DNA from: a bacterium
GTDB taxonomy: Archaea; Nanobdellota; Nanobdellia; SCGC-AAA011-G17; GW2011-AR17
DNA: 26,257 nt
NCBI GenBank assembly: GCA_030697685.1
Contig: JAUYPF010000043.1
Coordinates: forward strand, 1-26,257
Direction of reading: 5' to 3'
Part shown: piece by piece, positions 1,120 to 23,461 of the stretch
Layout of the letters: every line of letters starts with the position of its first letter
Numbering within the stretch: position 1 is the stretch's first letter
Notes under the pieces: generated by a model
What the model was told of the DNA's origin: nothing
What the model saw: only the letters and a program-made list of their open reading frames with translations
Database searches by the model: none
Program-made: the position numbers and the translations under genes

Positions 1120-1785
1120 ATGGAAAAAAAAGAAATTTTAGAAGCAATACAACAACTGAAGAAAGATTCTCCAAAAAGAAATTTCTCTCAAAGTTATGAC
1201 TTTCTCGTAAAATTACAGCATTTTGATCCAAAAAAGAATGAGAATAAAGTGGATGTATTCGTTGCTTTGCCATATTCTCTAGGAAGAAAACAAACAGTTT
1301 GTGGCTTAGTCGGCGGTACTTTGTACAACGATGCAAAAGCAAATTGTGATCATACTATTGGCCAGGAAGAATTTAAATCAATGGCAGGCAATGCAAAAGA
1401 ATTAAAAAAGCTTGCACGAAAATATGATTTCTTTATCGCTCAGGCAGATATCATGGGGCCTATTGCAACTACTTTCGGAAGATACCTTGGTCCAAAAGGG
1501 AGAATGCCAAATCCAAAAGCAGGAGCAATTGTTCCTCCAAAGGGCTCTACAAAACCAATTGTAGAAAAATTACAAAAAACTGTTCGCTTAGCAATTAAAA
1601 ACAATGAGATGGCAGTGCGTTGCCCTATTGGAAAAGATTCAATGAAAGATGAAGAAGTCGCAGAGAATATTCTCACTGCATATACTTCTCTAGTCCAAGT
1701 TCTTCCCCAGCACGAACAAAACATCAAATTCATACTTCTCAAACTTACCATGAGCAAGGCTGTTGCCATAGGTGGCAAAAAATGA
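1120..1785 (+). CDS. rpl1: 50S ribosomal protein L1
   Basis: 221 aa with L1 family motifs (GPKGRMPNPKAGAIV and others). It overlaps the next gene in an ATGA start/stop, as in the L1-L10-L12 operon. Confidence 0.9.
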   Translation: MEKKEILEAIQQLKKDSPKRNFSQSYDFLVKLQHFDPKKNENKVDVFVALPYSLGRKQTVCGLVGGTLYNDAKANCDHTIGQEEFKSMAGNAKELKKLARKYDFFIAQADIMGPIATTFGRYLGPKGRMPNPKAGAIVPPKGSTKPIVEKLQKTVRLAIKNNEMAVRCPIGKDSMKDEEVAENILTAYTSLVQVLPQHEQNIKFILLKLTMSKAVAIGGKK

Positions 1786-2636
1786 ACAAGCCAAAAGCTT
1801 ATGTTAATGATGCAAAGAAGCAAGTAGTCAAATCCTTGTCAAAGCAAATTCAAGAATATCCTATTATTGGCCTTGTAGACATGGAAAATCTTCCTGCAAT
1901 GCAATTACAAAAAATGAAGAAATCCCTTCGTGGAAAAGTAGTGATTGCAATGGCAAAGAAGAGATTGATTAAACTGGCATTAAAACAATCTCCAAAAGGA
2001 TTAACAGAACTATCTGAGAGAATTCGTGGTATGCCTGCACTTATTTTCACAAAAGAAAATCCTTTCAAACTCTACAAAACTCTTTCAGCAAGCAAAAGCC
2101 CAGCACCTGCAAAAGCAGGACAGCATGCACCAAAAGATATTATTGTTCCAGCAGGAAAAACCAGCTTTGCCCCTGGGCCAATTATTGGAGAGCTTGGTCA
2201 ACTAGGTATCAAGGCTGGTATTGAAGATGGAAAAGTTGCAATTAAACAAGATAAAGTTCTTCTGAAAGAAGGAGAACTAGTAACAAAAAAAATTGCAGAA
2301 GTATTAACACGATTAAATATTCTTCCTATGGAAGTAGGTTTGAATATTGTTGCAGTTTTTGAGAATGGTATTATTTTCGATAGAAAAGTTCTTGAGATTG
2401 ATGACAAGATCTATCTTGCAAACCTCATTAAATCACATAATGAAGCAATGAACTTAGCTGTTAAAATTGGTTATATTTCAAAAGACACGATTAATGTACT
2501 ACTCAGCAAAGCACATAGAGAGGCAATGGCCCTTGCAGATGGAAAAGATATCCTGACAAGCGACAATGTCAACAAACTCTTGGCAAAAGCTGAAGCACAA
2601 GCAAATGCTTTAAAGAAAAAAGCACATATTGAATAG
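1782..2636 (+). CDS. rplP0: Ribosomal stalk protein P0 (L10 family, archaeal)
   Basis: 284 aa. The N-terminal L10 domain and an alanine/lysine-rich C-terminal tail are typical of archaeal P0. Position between L1 and P1 fits. Confidence 0.9.
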   Translation: MNKPKAYVNDAKKQVVKSLSKQIQEYPIIGLVDMENLPAMQLQKMKKSLRGKVVIAMAKKRLIKLALKQSPKGLTELSERIRGMPALIFTKENPFKLYKTLSASKSPAPAKAGQHAPKDIIVPAGKTSFAPGPIIGELGQLGIKAGIEDGKVAIKQDKVLLKEGELVTKKIAEVLTRLNILPMEVGLNIVAVFENGIIFDRKVLEIDDKIYLANLIKSHNEAMNLAVKIGYISKDTINVLLSKAHREAMALADGKDILTSDNVNKLLAKAEAQANALKKKAHIE

Positions 2637-18892: not shown

Positions 18893-20566
18893 ATGGCTTT
18901 CATAAGTGCAATACGAAGATTTTCTCGATTAAAAGAAATAGTAAATCTTTTGATGAAAGAAGGCTTTGAAGAAATAATTCAACAATTGCATTTTCATACA
19001 CCTCTTCTCATAAGCAAAGTATCTTTAGAACCAACAAAAAAACAAACAAACAACATTCCAATACGCTTACGTAGAGTTATGGAGAATGCAGGTGGTGCTT
19101 TGGTAAAAGTAGGACAAATGCTTTCCTTGCGTGCAGATCTTATCCCTCAAGAGTATTGTGATGAGTTTGCAAAATTACAAGATTCTGTCAAACCTTTTCC
19201 TTATGCACAAATAAAAACCATACTTGAAGCAGAATATAAAAAACCTTTAAAAGATGTTTTCAAAGAATTTGAAGAAAAACCTATTGCTGCTGCATCCATA
19301 GGCCAAGTACATAAAGCTCGCTTAAAAACTGGAGAACTTGTTGCAGTAAAAGTACAAAGACCTGATATCAAGAAAACCTTTGAAGCAGATATAGATCTTC
19401 TCTATTACATTGCGGAGGAAGCAGAAAAATATATCCCAGACTTGAAAGCTTTCAAACCAAAAAAAATTGTTGGAGAGTTTGAGAAATACACAGAAAAAGA
19501 ACTAGACTTTCTTGCAGAAGCGAAGAACATTGATATTTTCTATGAAAAATACAAATATAGTCCACAAATAAAAATTCCAAAAGTCTACTGGGAATATACA
19601 ACCAGTAAAGTAATTACTATGGAATTTATTGATGGAAAAAAAATCTCAGAAATAGATACTTTAACCAAAGAAGAGAAAAAGAAAATTACTATGACTTTGT
19701 ACAAAAGCATTATAGAACAAGTATTTGAAATGCATATTTTTCATGCAGACCCACATCCAGGAAATATTTTCTTAATGAAAAATGGAAAAATAGCTTTTTT
19801 AGATTTTGGCATTGTTGGAAGATTGTCTCCAGATCTCAAAGAAAATGTAGAATACATGCTTGTTGGCTTGGTAAAAGGTGATACTGACCTTTTAGTACGA
19901 AGTTTCAATGGCTTAGGCATGATAGGAGACATTGATGAGCAAAAATTCAAAGAAGATTTGTTTGAAGCTTGGGGGGAGTTTCATAGTTCTTCATTGAAAC
20001 AAATAAATATGAAGCGTTTCTTTAATAGTACATTTGAAATAGGAAGAAAATACAATATTGAGTTTCCACATAATTTCGTTCTATTAGTAAAGGCAGTGGT
20101 CACCACAGAGGGCTTTGCAAAACAGCTTTATCCTGAAGCAAACTTTATAGAAGTCTGCAAATCACAAGTGGAGCATCTTTTGCAAAAAGAACGTGATCCA
20201 AAAAATTTGTATAACTCCTTCAAGAAAGGAGCCTTTGATTTTACTACTACTTTGAAAAAATTTCCGCAAGATTTAAGAACTCTTGTGCATCTATTAAAGA
20301 CAGGAACAAAAGTTAAAGTTGAGATTGATCACAAAGAGTTGAATGATCTGACTTTAGAACTAGATCGTTCCAGCAATCGCCTAACATTTGGTGTTATCAT
20401 TGGAGGCCTTTCAATTACCACAGGTTTATTGATTGTTGCTGATGTCCATCCAAAACTTTGGGGACTTCCTATCTATGCTTGGGGAAGTGCAGCATTGATA
20501 TTCATATTGTCATTAATTTTGACAGTGTCTATATTTAGAGAAAAAAGGAGAGGTGAAGAAGAGTGA
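18893..20566 (+). CDS. ABC1/UbiB-family atypical protein kinase with C-terminal TM helices
   Basis: The ATP-binding region AAASIGQVHKARLKTGELVAVKVQRPDI is diagnostic of the ABC1/aarF/UbiB family. The catalytic region includes HADPHPGNIF. Two C-terminal TM helices. Confidence 0.85.
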   Translation: MAFISAIRRFSRLKEIVNLLMKEGFEEIIQQLHFHTPLLISKVSLEPTKKQTNNIPIRLRRVMENAGGALVKVGQMLSLRADLIPQEYCDEFAKLQDSVKPFPYAQIKTILEAEYKKPLKDVFKEFEEKPIAAASIGQVHKARLKTGELVAVKVQRPDIKKTFEADIDLLYYIAEEAEKYIPDLKAFKPKKIVGEFEKYTEKELDFLAEAKNIDIFYEKYKYSPQIKIPKVYWEYTTSKVITMEFIDGKKISEIDTLTKEEKKKITMTLYKSIIEQVFEMHIFHADPHPGNIFLMKNGKIAFLDFGIVGRLSPDLKENVEYMLVGLVKGDTDLLVRSFNGLGMIGDIDEQKFKEDLFEAWGEFHSSSLKQINMKRFFNSTFEIGRKYNIEFPHNFVLLVKAVVTTEGFAKQLYPEANFIEVCKSQVEHLLQKERDPKNLYNSFKKGAFDFTTTLKKFPQDLRTLVHLLKTGTKVKVEIDHKELNDLTLELDRSSNRLTFGVIIGGLSITTGLLIVADVHPKLWGLPIYAWGSAALIFILSLILTVSIFREKRRGEEE

Positions 20567-20880
20567 GAGAAAAAGTACGTGAATTAAGTCTTGCAGGTCT
20601 CGGTCTTGCAGTAACAGTAAAAGAAAAAGCACAGAGCTTAGGAAGAAAGCTTATTCGTAAGGGTGAAGCAAATGAAAAGAGAATTCTCAGTCATCCAAAA
20701 CAAAAATTTATTGCCGGTGCACATTTTGCAGGAAAAGAAGCTTTAGTAATTTCTCGAAAAAGTTTGCAAATGCTTGAAAGAGAATTAAAGAAATTAGAAG
20801 CAGAAGCACGAAAAGCAGAAAAAATAGTAAAGAAAACAATAAGAAAACCTGCACGGAAAAAAGCAAAGAAAAGGCTTTAA
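20563..20880 (+). CDS. Phasin-like small basic coiled-coil protein (GTG start, overlaps the kinase stop by 4 nt)
   Basis: The N-terminal LAGLGLAVTVKEKAQSLGRKLIRKGE resembles the phasin / PHA-granule-associated protein N-terminal motif (LAGLGAxxLTKEKAEELVDELVKRGE). The rest is a K/E/A-rich coiled coil with a KKAKKRL tail. Confidence 0.5.
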   Translation: MREKVRELSLAGLGLAVTVKEKAQSLGRKLIRKGEANEKRILSHPKQKFIAGAHFAGKEALVISRKSLQMLERELKKLEAEARKAEKIVKKTIRKPARKKAKKRL

Positions 20881-20904
20881 TTTTTTTTAAGTTTCTAATG
20901 GTGA

Positions 20905-20939
20905 CCGAAAATCTTCCTGATTTTTCGGAAATCTTCCTG
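20905..20939 (+). promoter_or_regulatory. Tandem 20-bp direct repeat carrying the inverted-repeat motif CGRAAATCTTCCTG, 2 copies
   Basis: CCGAAAATCTTCCTG at 20905-20919 and TCGGAAATCTTCCTG at 20925-20939, each followed by a T-run. GGAA-ATC-TTCC is an inverted repeat with a 3-nt spacer. Located between the phasin-like stop (plus a T8 run) and the PIN gene start. Confidence 0.5.
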
Positions 20940-20985
20940 TTTTTTGGTGTAAGAGTTTATTAAAACACTTTTCATAAAATGTTCT

Positions 20986-21411
20986 ATGGCTCCGTATTAT
21001 GTTGATACTTGTATTTGGCTGAACATAATAAAAAAGGAAGAAAAAGAATATGAGTCCTCAAAAAAATTCTTAGATGCCTTGATGACATTAAAATGCACAG
21101 TCTTGTACTCTGGAGCAATTTTAAGAGAATTAGAAATAAAGCTTCCCAAACAAGAGTTTCAAAAGGTAAAAAATCAATTAAATAATGGCAGCTCATTTCG
21201 AGAAGTAGAGTCTTCAGTTGAAGATAGGAATAAAGCAAGAAGAATTGAGTCTCAATATAACTTTTCGATAAGCTTTTATGATCTTTTACATATGGTTCTT
21301 GCAAGAAAGGAAAATGCTATTTTGGTGACAAGAGATGAATTCTTACTAGATGTTGCTAAAGTGTATAAAATCCAAACTATGAAACCAGAAGATTTTCTAA
21401 GCACTATTTAA
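20986..21411 (+). CDS. PIN-domain ribonuclease (VapC-like toxin candidate)
   Basis: 141 aa. N-terminal YYVDTCIWLNII gives the first acidic residue in the PIN position. C-terminal ILVTRDEFL gives the T/S-x-D motif. No RHH/AbrB antitoxin gene lies upstream. Confidence 0.6.
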   Translation: MAPYYVDTCIWLNIIKKEEKEYESSKKFLDALMTLKCTVLYSGAILRELEIKLPKQEFQKVKNQLNNGSSFREVESSVEDRNKARRIESQYNFSISFYDLLHMVLARKENAILVTRDEFLLDVAKVYKIQTMKPEDFLSTI

Positions 21412-21570
21412 AAAGTGAATAAACTCTTCATCACTCATATCTTTACATTGTTCAGAAAGTTTCTTTCGTATTTCTCTAACTTCTATAACTGAATCTATTC
21501 CATTATCAGGAATGATCCCTACCCAATCATTAATATTCATTTTTCTTTTCATAACAGTTTCTGTTTCCAT
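21397..21570 (-). CDS. Small acidic ORF (58 aa), convergent with and overlapping the PIN gene 3' end. Possible antitoxin-like partner or spurious.
   Basis: ATG is the complement of 21568-21570, stop the complement of 21397-21399. Protein METETVMKRKMNINDWVGIIPDNGIDSVIEVREIRKKLSEQCKDMSDEEFIHFLNSA. Below the 60-aa cutoff of the ORF track. Confidence 0.25.
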   Translation of the reverse strand: METETVMKRKMNINDWVGIIPDNGIDSVIEVREIRKKLSEQCKDMSDEEFIHFLNSA

Positions 21571-21616
21571 GCTTTATCTATAACACCCATACTTAATAAG
21601 CTTTTTCAAGCAATTT

Positions 21617-21631
21617 CCGGAAATCTTCCGG
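21617..21631 (+). promoter_or_regulatory. Third copy of the motif, here a perfect palindrome: CCGGAAATCTTCCGG
   Basis: Inverted repeat CCGGAA-ATC-TTCCGG. The same GGAAATCTTCC core occurs at 20905-20939. It sits 8 nt downstream of the stop of 21639..22013. Confidence 0.5.
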
Positions 21632-21638
21632 ATTATCT

Positions 21639-22013
21639 TTACTTGTACAACATTCCTCTCTGCTCTTTAAGCCATCTTTCAAAATCGAGTACAGAAAGAT
21701 CCTTTTGAGGGTTTGAGCTGTAATAATCAAAATGAATATCTAGGTCTCTATAAACCAAATACCATTCTTGCCTATCTGTAAAAGAATTCTTATCAATATT
21801 CGCTTCAAGAGAAACAGTCTTGTAAAGTGTATCCTTCTTTTGTTCGTATTCTACATAGTCTTCAACAACTGCACTCAATTTCTGAAAAATTGGGTATGCA
21901 TATTTGCTAGATATACAAGTAACACCAATAGATGTTCCTAAAATTCCTAAAAGTACACGATCAATAGTATTCATCTTTTTAGGATTTAAGAAGAGGTTAA
22001 TAAGCCTTTGCAA
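21639..22013 (-). CDS. Hypothetical protein, possible lipoprotein or membrane-anchored
   Basis: 124 aa. An internal Met (MNTIDRVLLGILGTSIGVTCISS) gives a signal/lipobox-like N-terminus. No family recognised. Divergent from rpl7ae. Confidence 0.4.
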   Translation of the reverse strand: MQRLINLFLNPKKMNTIDRVLLGILGTSIGVTCISSKYAYPIFQKLSAVVEDYVEYEQKKDTLYKTVSLEANIDKNSFTDRQEWYLVYRDLDIHFDYYSSNPQKDLSVLDFERWLKEQRGMLYK

Positions 22014-22080: not shown

Positions 22081-22428
22081 ATGGATGAAAAACAATTAGC
22101 TGAGAAGGCCTATGAAGCTGTTGAAATAGCAAAAACTTCTGGGAAACTTAAACGTGGAACAAACGAAGTAACAAAGACAGTAGAAAAAGGTCTTGCAAAA
22201 CTTGTAGTAGTTGCAAAAGATACTGCTCCTGCAGAAATAATCATGCACCTTGGTCCTTTATGCAAGGAAAAGAAAGTTCCTATGGTAACAGTTCCAAGTA
22301 AAGTAGAATTAGGAACCGCAGCAGGAATGCCGATTGGTGCAAGTGCAATTGCAATTGTGCAAGAAGGCGAAGCAAAGAATATAATTAAACAAATTTCAGA
22401 TTATGTAAACGAAAATGGCAGCTCCTAA
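22081..22428 (+). CDS. rpl7ae: 50S ribosomal protein L7Ae
   Basis: [55 protein letters not shown] is the L7Ae/L30e K-turn binding fold. I placed the start at the internal Met 22081. The ORF-track start at 21904 adds an implausible extension. Confidence 0.9.
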
Positions 22429-22744
22429 AAAAGAAGGTAAAGAAGAGAAAAAACCAGCTCAAACTGATGGAAAACCAGTAGTAGCGCAAGCTCCTGCAGT
22501 AAATCCAACAGACAAGCCTAGAGCTTCTATTTTCACAGAAGCTGTCCCTGCACGTGTAGAAGAAATCATTGGCAGAACAGGAACACGAGGAGAAATTATC
22601 CAAGTGCGCTGTAAAATTCTTGATGGCAGAGATGTAAACAAAATTCTCTCTCGAAACGTGAAAGGTCCAGTGCGCTTAAAGGACATTCTTATGTTGAGAG
22701 AAACAGAAATTGAAGCAAGAAAGCTCAATAAGGGGAAACGATAA
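22415..22744 (+). CDS. rps28e: 30S ribosomal protein S28e with a ~40-aa Lys/Pro/Ala-rich N-terminal extension
   Basis: The core [49 protein letters not shown] matches S28e. The only in-frame start is ATG 22415, which overlaps the rpl7ae 3' end by 14 nt. Confidence 0.85.
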
Positions 22745-22929
22745 TGGTAAAATGTAGTTTTTGTACAAAAGAGATTTCTCCAGGAACAGGAATGATTTTT
22801 GTCTACAAGACTGGTAAAATTGCAAATTTCTGTTCTAGAAAATGTGAACTTCATACATTAAAGTTACATAGAAAACCTCAAAATATGAAATGGGTAACCT
22901 CTGCTGGTAAGGATAAGAGCAAAAAATAA
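22744..22929 (+). CDS. rpl24e: 50S ribosomal protein L24e
   Basis: CSFCTKEISPGTGMIFVYKTGKIANFCSRKC is the L24e C4 zinc-ribbon signature. Its start overlaps the S28e stop. Confidence 0.85.
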   Translation: MVKCSFCTKEISPGTGMIFVYKTGKIANFCSRKCELHTLKLHRKPQNMKWVTSAGKDKSKK

Positions 22930-22950
22930 ATTTTTTATTTTTTAAAATTA
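22927..22950 (+). terminator. T-rich tract after rpl24e. An ndk GGAGG SD follows, so read-through or a weak terminator.
   Basis: TAAATTTTTTATTTTTTAAAATT. AGGAGG sits at 22956-22961, 8 nt before the ndk ATG. Confidence 0.3.
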
Positions 22951-22969
22951 TTTCAAGGAGGAATATACA

Positions 22970-23461
22970 ATGATAGAAAGAACATTTGTTATGATAAAAC
23001 CTGATGGAGTAAAAAGATCTCTTATTGGGGAAGTTATTAAAAGATTTGAGAATGTAGGTTTAAAATTAATTGGAATGAAAATGCTTTGGATTGATAAAGA
23101 CTTTGCAAGTAAGCATTATACAGAAGATATTTCAATAAGGCGTGGTGAAAGAGTAAGAAATGATATGATAAGTTATGCTGTTGAAGGTCCAGTTATTGCA
23201 ATGGTTTGGGAAGGTGTGCAAGCTATTGAAGTGGTCAGAAAACTTGTTGGTGGCACAGAACCAAAACTTGCTCTTCCAGGAACAATTCGAGGAGATTTTA
23301 CACATGTTTCCTTTGCATATGCAGATAATAAAAGAATTGCTGTAAGAAATGTCATTCATGCTTCTGGAGATGCAAAAGATGCTGCATATGAAATTCAATT
23401 ATGGTTTTCAGAAGAAGATCTTTTCAAATATAAAACAGTACATGAACAGGAATTACATTAA
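22970..23461 (+). CDS. ndk: Nucleoside diphosphate kinase
   Basis: MIKPDGVKRSLIGEVIKRFE, GPVIAMVWEG, GTIRGDF and the catalytic NVIHASGD motif. Conserved archaeal position after L7Ae-S28e-L24e. Confidence 0.9.
   Translation: MIERTFVMIKPDGVKRSLIGEVIKRFENVGLKLIGMKMLWIDKDFASKHYTEDISIRRGERVRNDMISYAVEGPVIAMVWEGVQAIEVVRKLVGGTEPKLALPGTIRGDFTHVSFAYADNKRIAVRNVIHASGDAKDAAYEIQLWFSEEDLFKYKTVHEQELH

What the first reader, a model, noticed from the sequence alone, without database searches (positions are those of the whole stretch)
20881..21640. Orphan PIN (VapC-like) gene flanked by three copies of a palindromic GGAAATCTTCC motif. No canonical upstream antitoxin.
The PIN protein (20986..21411) has the expected N-terminal Asp and C-terminal T-x-D motifs but no VapB-type gene upstream. 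A tandem 20-bp repeat lies upstream at 20905-20939, each unit containing CG(R)AAATCTTCCTG followed by a T-run. The perfect palindrome CCGGAAATCTTCCGG lies downstream at 21617-21631. All share the inverted-repeat core GGAA-ATC-TTCC, a typical dimeric transcription-factor site.

The motif occurs only around this gene in 26 kb. This suggests dedicated regulation, or remnants of a small mobile cassette's ends.

A 58-codon acidic ORF (21397..21570, minus strand) converges on and overlaps the PIN 3' end by about 15 nt. Its overlapping antisense transcript could act as an unconventional antitoxin, either the protein or the antisense RNA. All of this is inference from sequence alone.
Basis: partly seen in the sequence, partly recalled or inferred. 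Interest (0 to 1): 0.55.

Follow-up and report, generated by a model that had tools for sequence, protein, structure and literature searches.

The report
Tail-to-tail PIN toxin–antitoxin pair
The PIN nuclease gene is not an orphan: its partner is the small gene that runs into it from the opposite strand, an arrangement kept in about 80 related archaeal loci. The flanking palindromes are copies of a promoter signal shared by many genes, often toxin-antitoxin genes, in this archaeal lineage.

Summary
The window comes from a Woesearchaeota-like DPANN archaeon, although NCBI labels it 'bacterium'.

**PIN gene.** The gene at 20986..21411 is a VapC/FitB-like PIN with its acidic residues intact.

**Small ORF.** The 57-aa convergent ORF (21397..21570, minus strand) is a real gene and the PIN's conserved partner.
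- In 76 of 80 related metagenomic loci, and 3 of 3 loci reached from the small protein, a homologue lies tail-to-tail with the PIN. The 3' ends overlap, most often by 6 nt, and the two genes are never on the same strand.
- Most homologues are 80-aa ribbon-helix-helix (RHH) proteins.
- The window's copy has lost the RHH domain but keeps the conserved segment G-x-IP..G..SV..VREIRKKLS.

**Motif.** CCGGAA-ATC-TTCCGG is neither private to this gene nor a cassette end.
- It is a lineage-wide element centred 54 nt upstream of leaderless start codons, about 27 nt upstream of the TATA box.
- It occurs many times per genome in Woesearchaeota/Nanoarchaeia MAGs.
- The genes it precedes are about 44% toxin-antitoxin components.
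- In the window it sits at -54 of both convergent genes.

**Verdict.** This is a new variant of the VapBC/FitAB type. Toxicity, neutralisation and the motif-binding factor are all inferred, not shown.

The parts
20905..20919 (+). Motif copy 1 (CCGAAAATCTTCCTG), centre 74 nt upstream of the PIN ATG. It is the distal member of a tandem pair with a 20-bp period.
   Evidence: L003 has the same tandem pair. Tandem copies 20-21 bp apart occur at other promoters.
20925..20939 (+). Motif copy 2 (TCGGAAATCTTCCTG), centre 54 nt upstream of the PIN ATG, followed by T6 (20940-20945).
   Evidence: The motif sits in the same column (-54) upstream of the PIN in window, L002, L003, L007, L008, L013 and L076.
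20956..20965 (+). TATA-like box TTTATTAAAA of the PIN promoter, starting 30 nt before the ATG. This spacing implies a leaderless or near-leaderless mRNA.
   Evidence: Direct reading. A conserved YTTATTAAA/TTTTAAGG element lies at the same column in the other loci. The leaderless reading is an inference from established archaeal promoter geometry.
20986..21411 (+). PIN-domain (VapC/FitB-like) nuclease gene, 141 aa, the putative toxin.
   Evidence: Pfam PF01850 at E 1e-14. AF2 model with pLDDT 93. The top Foldseek hits in the PDB are FitB, VapC2, VapC4 and Shigella and M. tuberculosis VapCs. The acidic residues D7, E48, D99 and D117 are conserved.
21397..21570 (-). 57-aa minimal antitoxin-like gene. 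It is homologous to the C-terminal part of the RHH proteins that always converge on PINs of this subfamily, and its own RHH domain is absent.
   Evidence: G18, I20, G24, V28, R32, R35, K36, L38 and S39 are invariant. The gene is called independently in a Logan assembly.
21397..21411 (.). 15-nt overlap of the two convergent coding regions.
   Evidence: The overlap or abutment is conserved in 78 non-redundant loci (mode 6 nt).
21591..21600 (-). TATA-like box CTTATTAAGT of the small gene, starting 30 nt before its ATG. It mirrors the PIN promoter.
   Evidence: Direct reading. The same column is conserved in L003 and L007.
21617..21631 (+). Motif copy 3 (CCGGAAATCTTCCGG), centre 54 nt upstream of the small gene's ATG. 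Seen from that gene it reads GAT rather than ATC.
   Evidence: The motif sits at the same position upstream of the RHH-less small genes in L003 and L007. It forms a 7-bp hairpin as RNA and matches the terminator-like scan on the + strand.

Best explanation
The region is a two-gene toxin-antitoxin-like module of the VapBC/FitAB kind with an unusual but conserved layout.

- **Layout.** The PIN nuclease gene and its small partner gene are transcribed towards each other from two separate leaderless promoters, and their 3' ends overlap.
- **Neutralisation (inferred).** The partner protein probably neutralises the PIN through its conserved segment G-x-IP-x-x-G-x-SV-x-x-VREIRKKLS. Its two invariant arginines are candidates for insertion into the acidic PIN active site, as in solved VapBC complexes.
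- **Loss of the DNA-binding domain.** In most relatives the partner also carries an N-terminal RHH DNA-binding domain, and its own promoter carries an ATTAC...GTAAT operator. The window's copy has lost both.
- **The three palindromes.** They are copies of a promoter-upstream element widespread in Woesearchaeota/Nanoarchaeia (CCGRAA-N3-TTYCGG, centre -54 from the start codon, about 27 bp upstream of the TATA box, often in tandem at 20-21 bp).
- **Regulation (inferred).** The element is most likely the binding site of an unidentified dimeric host transcription factor. It places the PIN gene, the small gene, and many other (often toxin-antitoxin) genes of these organisms under common control.

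Shown: gene homology, gene arrangement, and motif positions and distribution. Inferred: toxicity, protein-protein neutralisation, factor binding, and the transcript ends.
For: **PIN identity**
- Pfam PIN at E 1e-14.
- A confident AF2 model whose best PDB neighbours are FitB, VapC2 and VapC4.

**Partner gene**
- The five first loci all show a convergent small gene sharing the GxIP..G..SV..VRxxRKxLS motif.
- A profile search finds 461 proteins. Nearly all are 78-90 aa RHH_8/RHH_1 proteins, and those that carry a source name are from Woesearchaeota/Nanoarchaeota.
- In 80 loci fetched with the PIN profile, 76 have the small gene convergent and overlapping or abutting, none has it on the same strand, and the 4 exceptions are contig ends or short flanks.
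- Three of 3 loci reached from the small protein show the same layout in independent gene calls.
- RHH-less versions keep the motif and are scattered on the PIN tree.
- VapB arginines flanked by acidic residues enter VapC active sites (PMC5389673).

**Operator**
- ATTAC-N3-5-GTAAT lies over the start of 43 of 62 RHH-bearing small genes, 0 of 62 PIN promoters and 0 of 8 RHH-less genes.

**Motif**
- It sits at -54 of the PIN in all five first loci and at -54 of the small gene in the three RHH-less ones.
- An exact 20-nt scan of GTDB genomes gave at least 112 loci. Of these, 57 are Woesearchaeota/Nanoarchaeia-type MAGs, with up to 11 copies per MAG.
- In 60 archaeal instances the start codon lies 53-55 nt from the motif centre in 34, against about 3 expected.
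- A further 29 copies with up to 2 mismatches occur in the same 415 kb.
- Of 39 downstream proteins, 17 are toxin-antitoxin families, against 13 of 100 size-matched neighbours (Fisher p 2e-4).
Against: - No experiment or transcript data are available.
- A model of the complex could not be run.
- The two invariant arginines are 3 residues apart, not the 8 seen in the solved VapBs that were cited.
- The factor that binds the motif is unknown.
- Most motif copies are followed by a T-run on the ATC strand, and copy 3 matches a hairpin-plus-T terminator scan. A terminator or insulator role cannot be excluded and may coexist with factor binding.
- Motif orientation is biased (ATC towards the gene in 8 of 9 extra copies), whereas the small gene uses the opposite orientation.
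- The regulon sample came from one strict pattern that required the T-run.
- Toxin-antitoxin genes are also common in the background, so the enrichment is about 3-fold, not exclusive.
Confidence: 0.7

Rival explanations
1. The palindromes act as hairpin-plus-T-run transcription terminators or insulators. The tandem pair would stop read-through from the upstream kinase operon into the toxin gene. The third copy would stop PIN-sense transcription after it has crossed the small gene.
For: - All three copies share the same absolute orientation, with T-rich sequence after them on the + strand.
- Copy 3 matches the terminator-like scan and folds as a 7-bp hairpin with z -3.25.
- L003 has T9 after its third copy.
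- Oligo-T is the established archaeal termination signal.
Against: - The tandem copies do not fold into their own hairpins (z -1.2), and the L003 third copy does not fold better than shuffles (z -0.03).
- Half-site changes (CCGAAA/CCTG) break pairing but preserve a degenerate dimer site.
- The 15-mer is identical across genomes of different G+C content, and its spacing to the TATA box and ATG is fixed at 53-55 nt. A terminator has no reason to show either property.
- Some copies at -54 are followed by A-rich rather than T-rich spacers.
Confidence: 0.15
2. The direct repeats are the ends of a small mobile cassette (attachment-site, target-duplication or REP/MITE-like elements) that brought in the PIN pair.
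For: - The repeats flank the two-gene unit in direct orientation in window, L003 and L007.
- The pair sits in different housekeeping neighbourhoods in different genomes.
- Synteny between window and L003 ends soon after copy 3.
Against: - Only about 14 of 84 PIN-family loci have the motif, and RHH-bearing pairs have it on the PIN side only.
- The motif precedes many unrelated single genes at a fixed distance from their start codons.
- DNA similarity between window and L003 continues about 20 nt past copy 3.
- No transposase or integrase lies nearby, and there are no hits in viral contigs.
Confidence: 0.05
3. The small gene works mainly as an antisense RNA (type I-like, as in convergent txpA/RatA-type loci), with the encoded peptide being secondary.
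For: - The 3' overlap is conserved in 78 non-redundant loci.
- In the window the first T5 run lies 128 nt past the PIN stop on the PIN strand and 223 nt past the small gene's stop on the other strand. Long antisense overlap is therefore plausible.
Against: - Conservation is at the protein level: there are invariant residues, DNA identity between loci is low, and the gene carries an RHH domain in most members.
- In most loci a T5 run occurs within 60 nt of each stop (median 42-47 nt), which predicts only short overlaps.
- The PIN is not a small membrane peptide like type I toxins.
Confidence: 0.1
4. The pair is not a toxin-antitoxin module. It is a PIN RNase with a dedicated regulatory or inhibitory subunit that serves a housekeeping RNA-processing role in DPANN archaea.
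For: - The pairs lie among housekeeping genes such as IF5A, Sua5, GINS, L44e and the L7Ae cluster.
- They match no PADLOC model.
- The subfamily is narrow (483 cluster representatives).
Against: - Genomic positions are patchy and variable.
- One close relative (L003) has lost the conserved Glu, which is typical of dispensable toxin-antitoxin genes.
- The nearest structures are VapC/FitB toxins.
- The pair shares its promoter element with bona fide toxin-antitoxin families.
Confidence: 0.15

Closest known systems
FitAB (Neisseria gonorrhoeae) and VapBC type II toxin-antitoxin modules
   Same: - Both have a PIN-domain toxin with four acidic residues.
- FitB, R. felis VapC2 and P. horikoshii VapC4 are the top structural neighbours.
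- Homologues of the partner carry an N-terminal RHH domain like FitA, plus a C-terminal tail with conserved arginines next to glutamate. In the solved VapBC complexes discussed in PMC5389673, such arginines enter the VapC active site.
   Different: - The genes are convergent with overlapping 3' ends and separate promoters, not an antitoxin-first operon (0 of 76 on the same strand).
- The operator is found only at the antitoxin gene.
- The window's antitoxin has no DNA-binding domain at all.
- There is no sequence-level match to any solved VapB or FitA.
- The PIN profile has only a marginal match to one PDB chain.
Type I toxin-antitoxin loci with convergent, 3'-overlapping genes (B. subtilis txpA/RatA, bsrG/SR4; own knowledge)
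   Same: The two genes are transcribed convergently, so some complementarity between the 3' ends of the two transcripts is unavoidable.
   Different: - Here both genes encode conserved proteins.
- The toxin is an enzyme, not a membrane peptide.
- No RNA-level evidence is available.
NrpR operator GGAA-N6-TTCC of Methanococcus maripaludis (PMC2723118)
   Same: It is an archaeal palindromic operator with GGAA/TTCC half-sites that marks a regulon.
   Different: - The spacer is 3 nt, not 6.
- The arms are longer (CCGGAA).
- The site lies upstream of BRE/TATA at a fixed -54, rather than at or after the TATA box or TSS (own knowledge).
- The genes controlled are toxin-antitoxin and small accessory genes, not nitrogen genes.
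13-bp abcde-WWW-edcba sites of archaeal Lrp/AsnC (FFRP) regulators, e.g. FL11 TGAAAWWWTTTCA (own knowledge, not checked here)
   Same: - Both have 5+3+5 palindrome geometry (CGGAA-ATC-TTCCG).
- Both occur as tandem sites about two helical turns apart.
- Both take promoter-upstream positions typical of archaeal activators.
   Different: - The half-site sequence differs.
- No Lrp/AsnC gene was identified in the window.
- Binding was not tested.

Membership tests
PIN domain (Pfam PF01850) | Match to the family HMM above its gathering score. | tested here: met
   55.6 bits against a cutoff of 23.6, E 1e-14, covering residues 4-125.
PIN domain (Pfam PF01850) | Alpha/beta/alpha PIN fold. | tested here: met
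   AF2 model with pLDDT 93.3 and pTM 0.86. Foldseek probability is 1.00 to FitB, VapC2, VapC4 and the M. tuberculosis and Shigella VapCs, with TM 0.6-0.78.
PIN domain (Pfam PF01850) | Conserved acidic residues for metal binding (Asp in strand 1, Glu, Asp, Asp/Glu near the C-terminus). | tested here: met
   D7, D99 and D117 are invariant and E48 is nearly invariant in the family alignments. Their geometry in the model was not inspected.
VapBC/FitAB type II toxin-antitoxin module | An adjacent gene for a protein antitoxin that binds the toxin. | tested here: inconclusive
   A conserved adjacent partner gene is found in 76 of 80 loci and carries an invariant Arg-containing motif.
VapBC/FitAB type II toxin-antitoxin module | Antitoxin and toxin co-transcribed as one operon, usually antitoxin first. 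| tested here: not met
   The genes are always convergent with overlapping 3' ends, and each has its own TATA-like box.
VapBC/FitAB type II toxin-antitoxin module | The antitoxin has an N-terminal DNA-binding domain (RHH, AbrB, HTH or Phd) that autoregulates the module. | tested here: not met
   The window's 57-aa protein has no Pfam or NCBIfam DNA-binding domain and lacks the RHH columns in the alignment. Its homologues do have RHH and an ATTAC..GTAAT operator, but only at their own gene.
VapBC/FitAB type II toxin-antitoxin module | The toxin arrests growth and the antitoxin relieves the arrest. | not testable with these tools
   Needs expression assays.
Ribbon-helix-helix (CopG/Arc/MetJ) proteins | A beta-strand plus two helices forming the RHH domain. 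| tested here: not met
   There is no RHH hit for the window protein, and only about 17 residues precede the conserved motif. Homologues hit RHH_1/RHH_8.
Type I (antisense RNA) toxin-antitoxin loci | A small hydrophobic toxin peptide and a non-coding antisense antitoxin. | tested here: not met
   The toxin candidate is a 141-aa enzyme, and the partner is a conserved protein-coding gene. Antisense overlap of the transcripts was not measurable.
Intrinsic (hairpin plus T-run) terminator | A stable G+C-rich stem followed directly by a T-run. | tested here: inconclusive
   Copy 3 meets the scan criteria. The tandem copies and the L003 third copy do not fold better than shuffles. The organism is archaeal.
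REP/MITE-like or cassette-end repeat | Copies mark element boundaries or lie at variable intergenic positions, unrelated to promoter geometry. | tested here: not met
   The distance to the start codon is fixed at 53-55 nt in 34 of 60 archaeal copies. The motif is absent from most PIN-pair loci.
NrpR operator | GGAA-N6-TTCC. | tested here: not met
   The spacer here is 3 nt. The consensus was taken from PMC2723118.

The most novel reading that the evidence does not exclude
DPANN (Woesearchaeota/Nanoarchaeia) archaea may carry a class of PIN toxin-antitoxin modules whose two genes are obligatorily convergent, with separate promoters and overlapping 3' ends. Control of the toxin would then rest on transcriptional interference or antisense pairing plus a protein antitoxin, not on operon autoregulation. 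In part of this lineage, a single palindromic upstream element and its unknown factor would tie dozens of different toxin-antitoxin modules (PIN, VapB, AbrB/MazE, DUF4258) into one host-controlled regulon. The window would show the end state: an antitoxin stripped of its own DNA-binding domain and handed over to that host control.
Probability: 0.35. Interest if true: 0.75.

Novelty: new variant of a known kind. Interest (0 to 1): 0.6.

Why it matters
- **Definition of type II modules.** Type II toxin-antitoxin modules are defined and searched for as co-directional operons autoregulated by the antitoxin. A family that is always tail-to-tail escapes such searches, and its PINs get labelled 'orphan'. 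The layout also raises the question of how toxin and antitoxin levels are balanced without a shared promoter.
- **Minimal antitoxin.** The repeated loss of the RHH domain, with retention of a segment of about 35 aa, marks out a minimal neutralising peptide for this PIN family.
- **Promoter element.** The fixed-position palindrome is a concrete, testable cis-element for transcription regulation in uncultivated DPANN archaea, where almost nothing is known. It appears to connect many toxin-antitoxin modules to a common signal.

Tried and rejected
- **Viral or plasmid origin.** Neither the motif nor the PIN family was found in viral contigs.
- **Defence-system membership.** There are no PADLOC hits. 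NCBIfam gives only domain-level RHH matches below cutoff (CdrS, ParD, NikR) for the homologues.
- **A fourth, inverted motif copy at the PIN 3' end (21382-21400).** This is a by-product of the conserved K-P-E-D/E-F/L codons. Lineages that use the motif are no closer to it there than lineages that do not.
- **RNA hairpin reading of the motif.** The hairpin is not consistently stable.
- **Rfam and tRNA scans of the window.** Nothing was found.
- **Shared right-hand synteny with L003.** The two 288-aa genes are unrelated.
- **Sigma-70 promoter scan.** Not informative for an archaeon.
- **Literature.** Searches for convergent type II modules, DPANN PIN modules and a Woesearchaeota promoter palindrome found nothing relevant in the held library. 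This is not proof of absence.
- **Degenerate pattern.** CGRAANNNTTYCG alone is not over-represented in the window (3 hits against 1.47 expected). The signal lies in the longer shared sequence and its positions.
Full report
**1. Observation**

- A 141-aa ORF at 20986..21411 (+).
- Two tandem 20-nt units, CGAAAATCTTCCTGATTTTT at 20906-20925 and CGGAAATCTTCCTGTTTTTT at 20926-20945.
- A third copy, CCGGAAATCTTCCGG, at 21617-21631.
- A 57-aa ORF at 21397..21570 on the minus strand that overlaps the PIN 3' end by 15 nt.

GGAAATCTTCC with up to one mismatch occurs 4 times in 26 kb against 0.66 expected, and no shuffle of 100 reaches 4. Three hits flank this pair, and the fourth (1884-1894) lies inside an ORF. 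The third copy is not a perfect palindrome. It has two complementary 6-nt arms around an asymmetric ATC.

**2. Organism**

The window is an NCBI MAG contig labelled 'bacterium'. It carries the archaeal L7Ae-S28e-L24e-NDK cluster just downstream. All relatives of the pair that carry a source name are from Woesearchaeota or Nanoarchaeota. It is therefore a DPANN archaeon, so archaeal promoter logic applies: BRE/TATA about 26 nt before the transcription start, with frequent leaderless mRNAs.

**3. The PIN**

- Pfam PIN scores E 1e-14.
- An AF2 model from a 4-sequence alignment has pLDDT 93.
- The best PDB neighbours by Foldseek are FitB, R. felis VapC2, P. horikoshii VapC4, and Shigella and M. 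tuberculosis VapCs.
- D7, D99 and D117 are invariant, and E48 is nearly invariant, across the subfamily.
- The subfamily is narrow. The profile finds 483 cluster representatives among 1.84 billion, 28 of them at E 1e-30 or better.
- It has only a marginal sequence match in the PDB.

**4. The partner**

The exact 57-aa protein is called in an independent assembly. Four other loci that hold a PIN relative (39-45% identity) or a relative of the small protein (77%) all show a small gene converging on the PIN 3' end.

The five small proteins share G-x-I-P/S-x-x-G-(x)-[DN]-[SA]-V-x-x-[VI]-R-x-x-R-K-x-L-S. G18, I20, G24, V28, R32, R35, K36, L38 and S39 are invariant. Two of the five carry an N-terminal RHH domain.

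A profile search returns 461 proteins. Nearly all are 78-90 aa and carry Pfam RHH_8 or RHH_1.

With the PIN profile I fetched 80 metagenomic loci.
- In 76 of them the small gene is convergent and overlaps or abuts the PIN gene.
- In none is it on the same strand.
- The four exceptions end at, or within about 400 nt of, the contig end.
- Over 78 non-redundant loci the overlap has a mode of 6 nt (40 loci), and all but two lie between -9 and +24 nt.
- Three of three look-ups that started from the small protein give the same layout in NCBI and JGI gene calls, in different housekeeping neighbourhoods.

RHH-less versions (50-60 aa: window, L003, L007, L122, L166, L176, L196) keep the conserved segment behind unrelated short N-termini. 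They are scattered on a PIN neighbour-joining tree. This suggests repeated loss of the DNA-binding domain and retention of the part that matters for the PIN.

In solved VapBC complexes, C-terminal VapB arginines flanked by acidic residues enter the VapC active site (PMC5389673). The invariant V-R-E-I-R-K fits that mode, but this is inference. A complex model could not be run.

**5. Promoters and operators**

Both genes have a TATA-like box starting 30 nt before the ATG: TTTATTAAAA at 20956-20965, and CTTATTAAGT at 21591-21600 on the minus strand. This implies leaderless transcripts.

In RHH-bearing relatives the small gene's promoter carries CATTAC-N5-ATTAC-N4-GTAAT, spanning the predicted start site and the ATG.
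- 43 of 62 non-redundant RHH-bearing loci have it.
- 0 of 62 PIN promoters have it.
- 0 of 8 RHH-less genes have it.

Autoregulation, where it is present, therefore covers only the antitoxin gene. The toxin gene has an independent promoter.

**6. The motif**

*Position in the PIN-pair loci.* When all five first loci are right-aligned on the start codons, the palindrome falls in the same column, centred 54 nt before the PIN ATG. In the three RHH-less loci it is also centred 54 nt before the small gene's ATG. In the window the centres are 20932 to 20986 and 21624 to 21570. However, only about 14 of 84 PIN-family loci have the motif (up to 3 mismatches), and perhaps 10 more have looser CGRAA..TTYCG variants at the same place. 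It is therefore a property of some host lineages, not of the cassette.

About 9 are expected for uniform composition. Of these, 57 are MAGs labelled Woesearchaeota, Nanoarchaeota/Nanoarchaeia, 'archaeon', or (five MAGs) Methanosarcinales, and several contigs per MAG are hit. Counts by MAG are 11 copies in ERP125453_co1_324, 6 contigs in UBA10136, and 5 copies each in SMAG_U8158 and SB9152_S1_bin_12. The bacterial hits lie in coding regions or look like ordinary terminators.

*Promoter geometry.* In the archaeal loci the motif is followed by a short T-rich spacer, a BRE/TATA-like element and a start codon. The start lies 53-55 nt from the motif centre in 34 of 60 instances, 20 of them at exactly 54, against about 3 expected. 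The same 415 kb holds 29 further copies with up to 2 mismatches, where chance predicts none. Nine of these sit at 53-55 nt from a start, eight with ATC pointing to the gene. Tandem copies 20-21 bp apart recur at other promoters (L022, L026, L063). That spacing is two helical turns, as expected for cooperative binding of dimers.

*Genes controlled.* Pfam assigns 17 of the 39 downstream proteins to toxin-antitoxin families: MazE/AbrB 6, VAPB_antitox 4, PIN/PIN_3 4, DUF4258 2 and DUF5678 1. This compares with about 13 of 100 size-matched ORFs from the same loci (Fisher p 2e-4). The rest are small membrane or unknown proteins and a few enzymes.

*Reading.* The motif is best read as the site of a dimeric transcription factor upstream of BRE/TATA, shared by a regulon rich in toxin-antitoxin modules. 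The factor is unknown.

**7. Rivals**

*Terminator or insulator.* This has some support. Copy 3 passes the terminator scan and folds well. But the tandem copies and the L003 third copy do not fold. Sequence identity across genomes and fixed promoter spacing are also not expected of terminators. Both roles could coexist.

*Cassette end or REP-like repeat.* This is contradicted by the motif's absence from most pairs, by its fixed promoter geometry, and by similarity between window and L003 that continues about 20 nt beyond copy 3.

*Mainly antisense-RNA antitoxin.* This is unlikely given protein-level conservation. Some antisense pairing of the 3' ends is nevertheless unavoidable. T5 runs occur within 60 nt of each stop in about 58% of loci. 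In the window they occur only 128 nt and 223 nt past the stops.

*Housekeeping RNase with an inhibitor subunit.* This cannot be excluded without experiments.

**8. Comparison with known systems and novelty**

The module works like VapBC/FitAB: a PIN toxin, with an RHH antitoxin in the relatives. It fails two defining features of that family as usually stated, namely the operon arrangement and, in the window, a DNA-binding antitoxin.

The palindrome resembles the NrpR operator GGAA-N6-TTCC (PMC2723118) only in its half-site core. Its 5+3+5 geometry recalls Lrp/AsnC sites (own knowledge, untested).

I found no description of an obligatorily convergent type II module, or of this promoter element, in the searchable library.

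I classify the finding as a new variant of a known kind, of moderate to good interest. The gene-level facts are solid. The mechanism (neutralisation, factor binding, antisense contribution) is inferred.

Noticed in passing
window 22110-23461, and the whole contig: NCBI labels the contig 'MAG: bacterium', but it carries the archaeal L7Ae-S28e-L24e-NDK cluster. Its PIN pair and promoter motif are typical of Woesearchaeota, so the taxonomic label looks wrong.
   Followed up: partly
L121-L200 (e.g. L152, L141, L186), upstream of the small genes: RHH-bearing homologues have a conserved CATTAC-N5-ATTAC-N4(ATG)-GTAAT element spanning the predicted start site and the start codon (M-V-M-D/E...). It is present in 43 of 62 non-redundant loci and never at the PIN promoter. 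It is probably the RHH autoregulatory operator.
   Followed up: partly
L003 1834-2283 (also L004, L005, L130): The closest relative's PIN has LKKMK in place of LRELE, so it has lost the conserved Glu (E48). It may be an inactive toxin whose partner gene is still intact.
   Followed up: no
L014, L033, L047, L086 (genes downstream of the motif): AbrB-type and RHH-like antitoxin candidates from different MAGs share a C-terminal 'SLAKEW..(K/E)ED.AWK.L' tail. This may be a common toxin-binding module on different DNA-binding domains.
   Followed up: no
window 21639-22013 (-): A 124-aa ORF lies directly upstream of the small gene. It has no match in Pfam, NCBIfam or PADLOC and was seen only in the same organism's other assembly (L001). 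Its last roughly 6 codons resemble the end of an unrelated 288-aa gene at the same position in L003.
   Followed up: partly
window 20563-20880 (+): A 105-aa weakly phasin-like ORF starts (GTG) 4 nt before the stop of the ABC1/UbiB kinase gene. The pairing is conserved in L003, so this is probably an operon partner of the kinase.
   Followed up: no
window 21382-21400: An inverted motif-like sequence (CCAGAAGATTTTC) lies at the PIN 3' end. It is explained by the conserved K-P-E-D-F-L codons, because the motif read in frame would encode P-E-D-F-R. It is not enriched in lineages that use the motif.
   Followed up: yes
window 1884-1894: A one-mismatch copy, GAAAATCTTCC, lies inside ORF 1782..2636 with no TATA-like box after it. 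It is probably chance.
   Followed up: partly
L002, L008, L121 small proteins: The RHH domain of the homologues scores best against the NCBIfam model for the haloarchaeal cell-division regulator CdrS (45 bits, cutoff 100), and weakly against aCcr1. The similarity is at domain level only.
   Followed up: no
L021, L057 (genes at +54 of the motif): Two different MAGs have the motif in front of homologous membrane proteins of 195-237 aa (M-[DE]-[EK]-V-P-Y-I-G...) and homologous proteins of 142-146 aa (..YV.F..P..). These are recurrent regulon members of unknown function.
   Followed up: no
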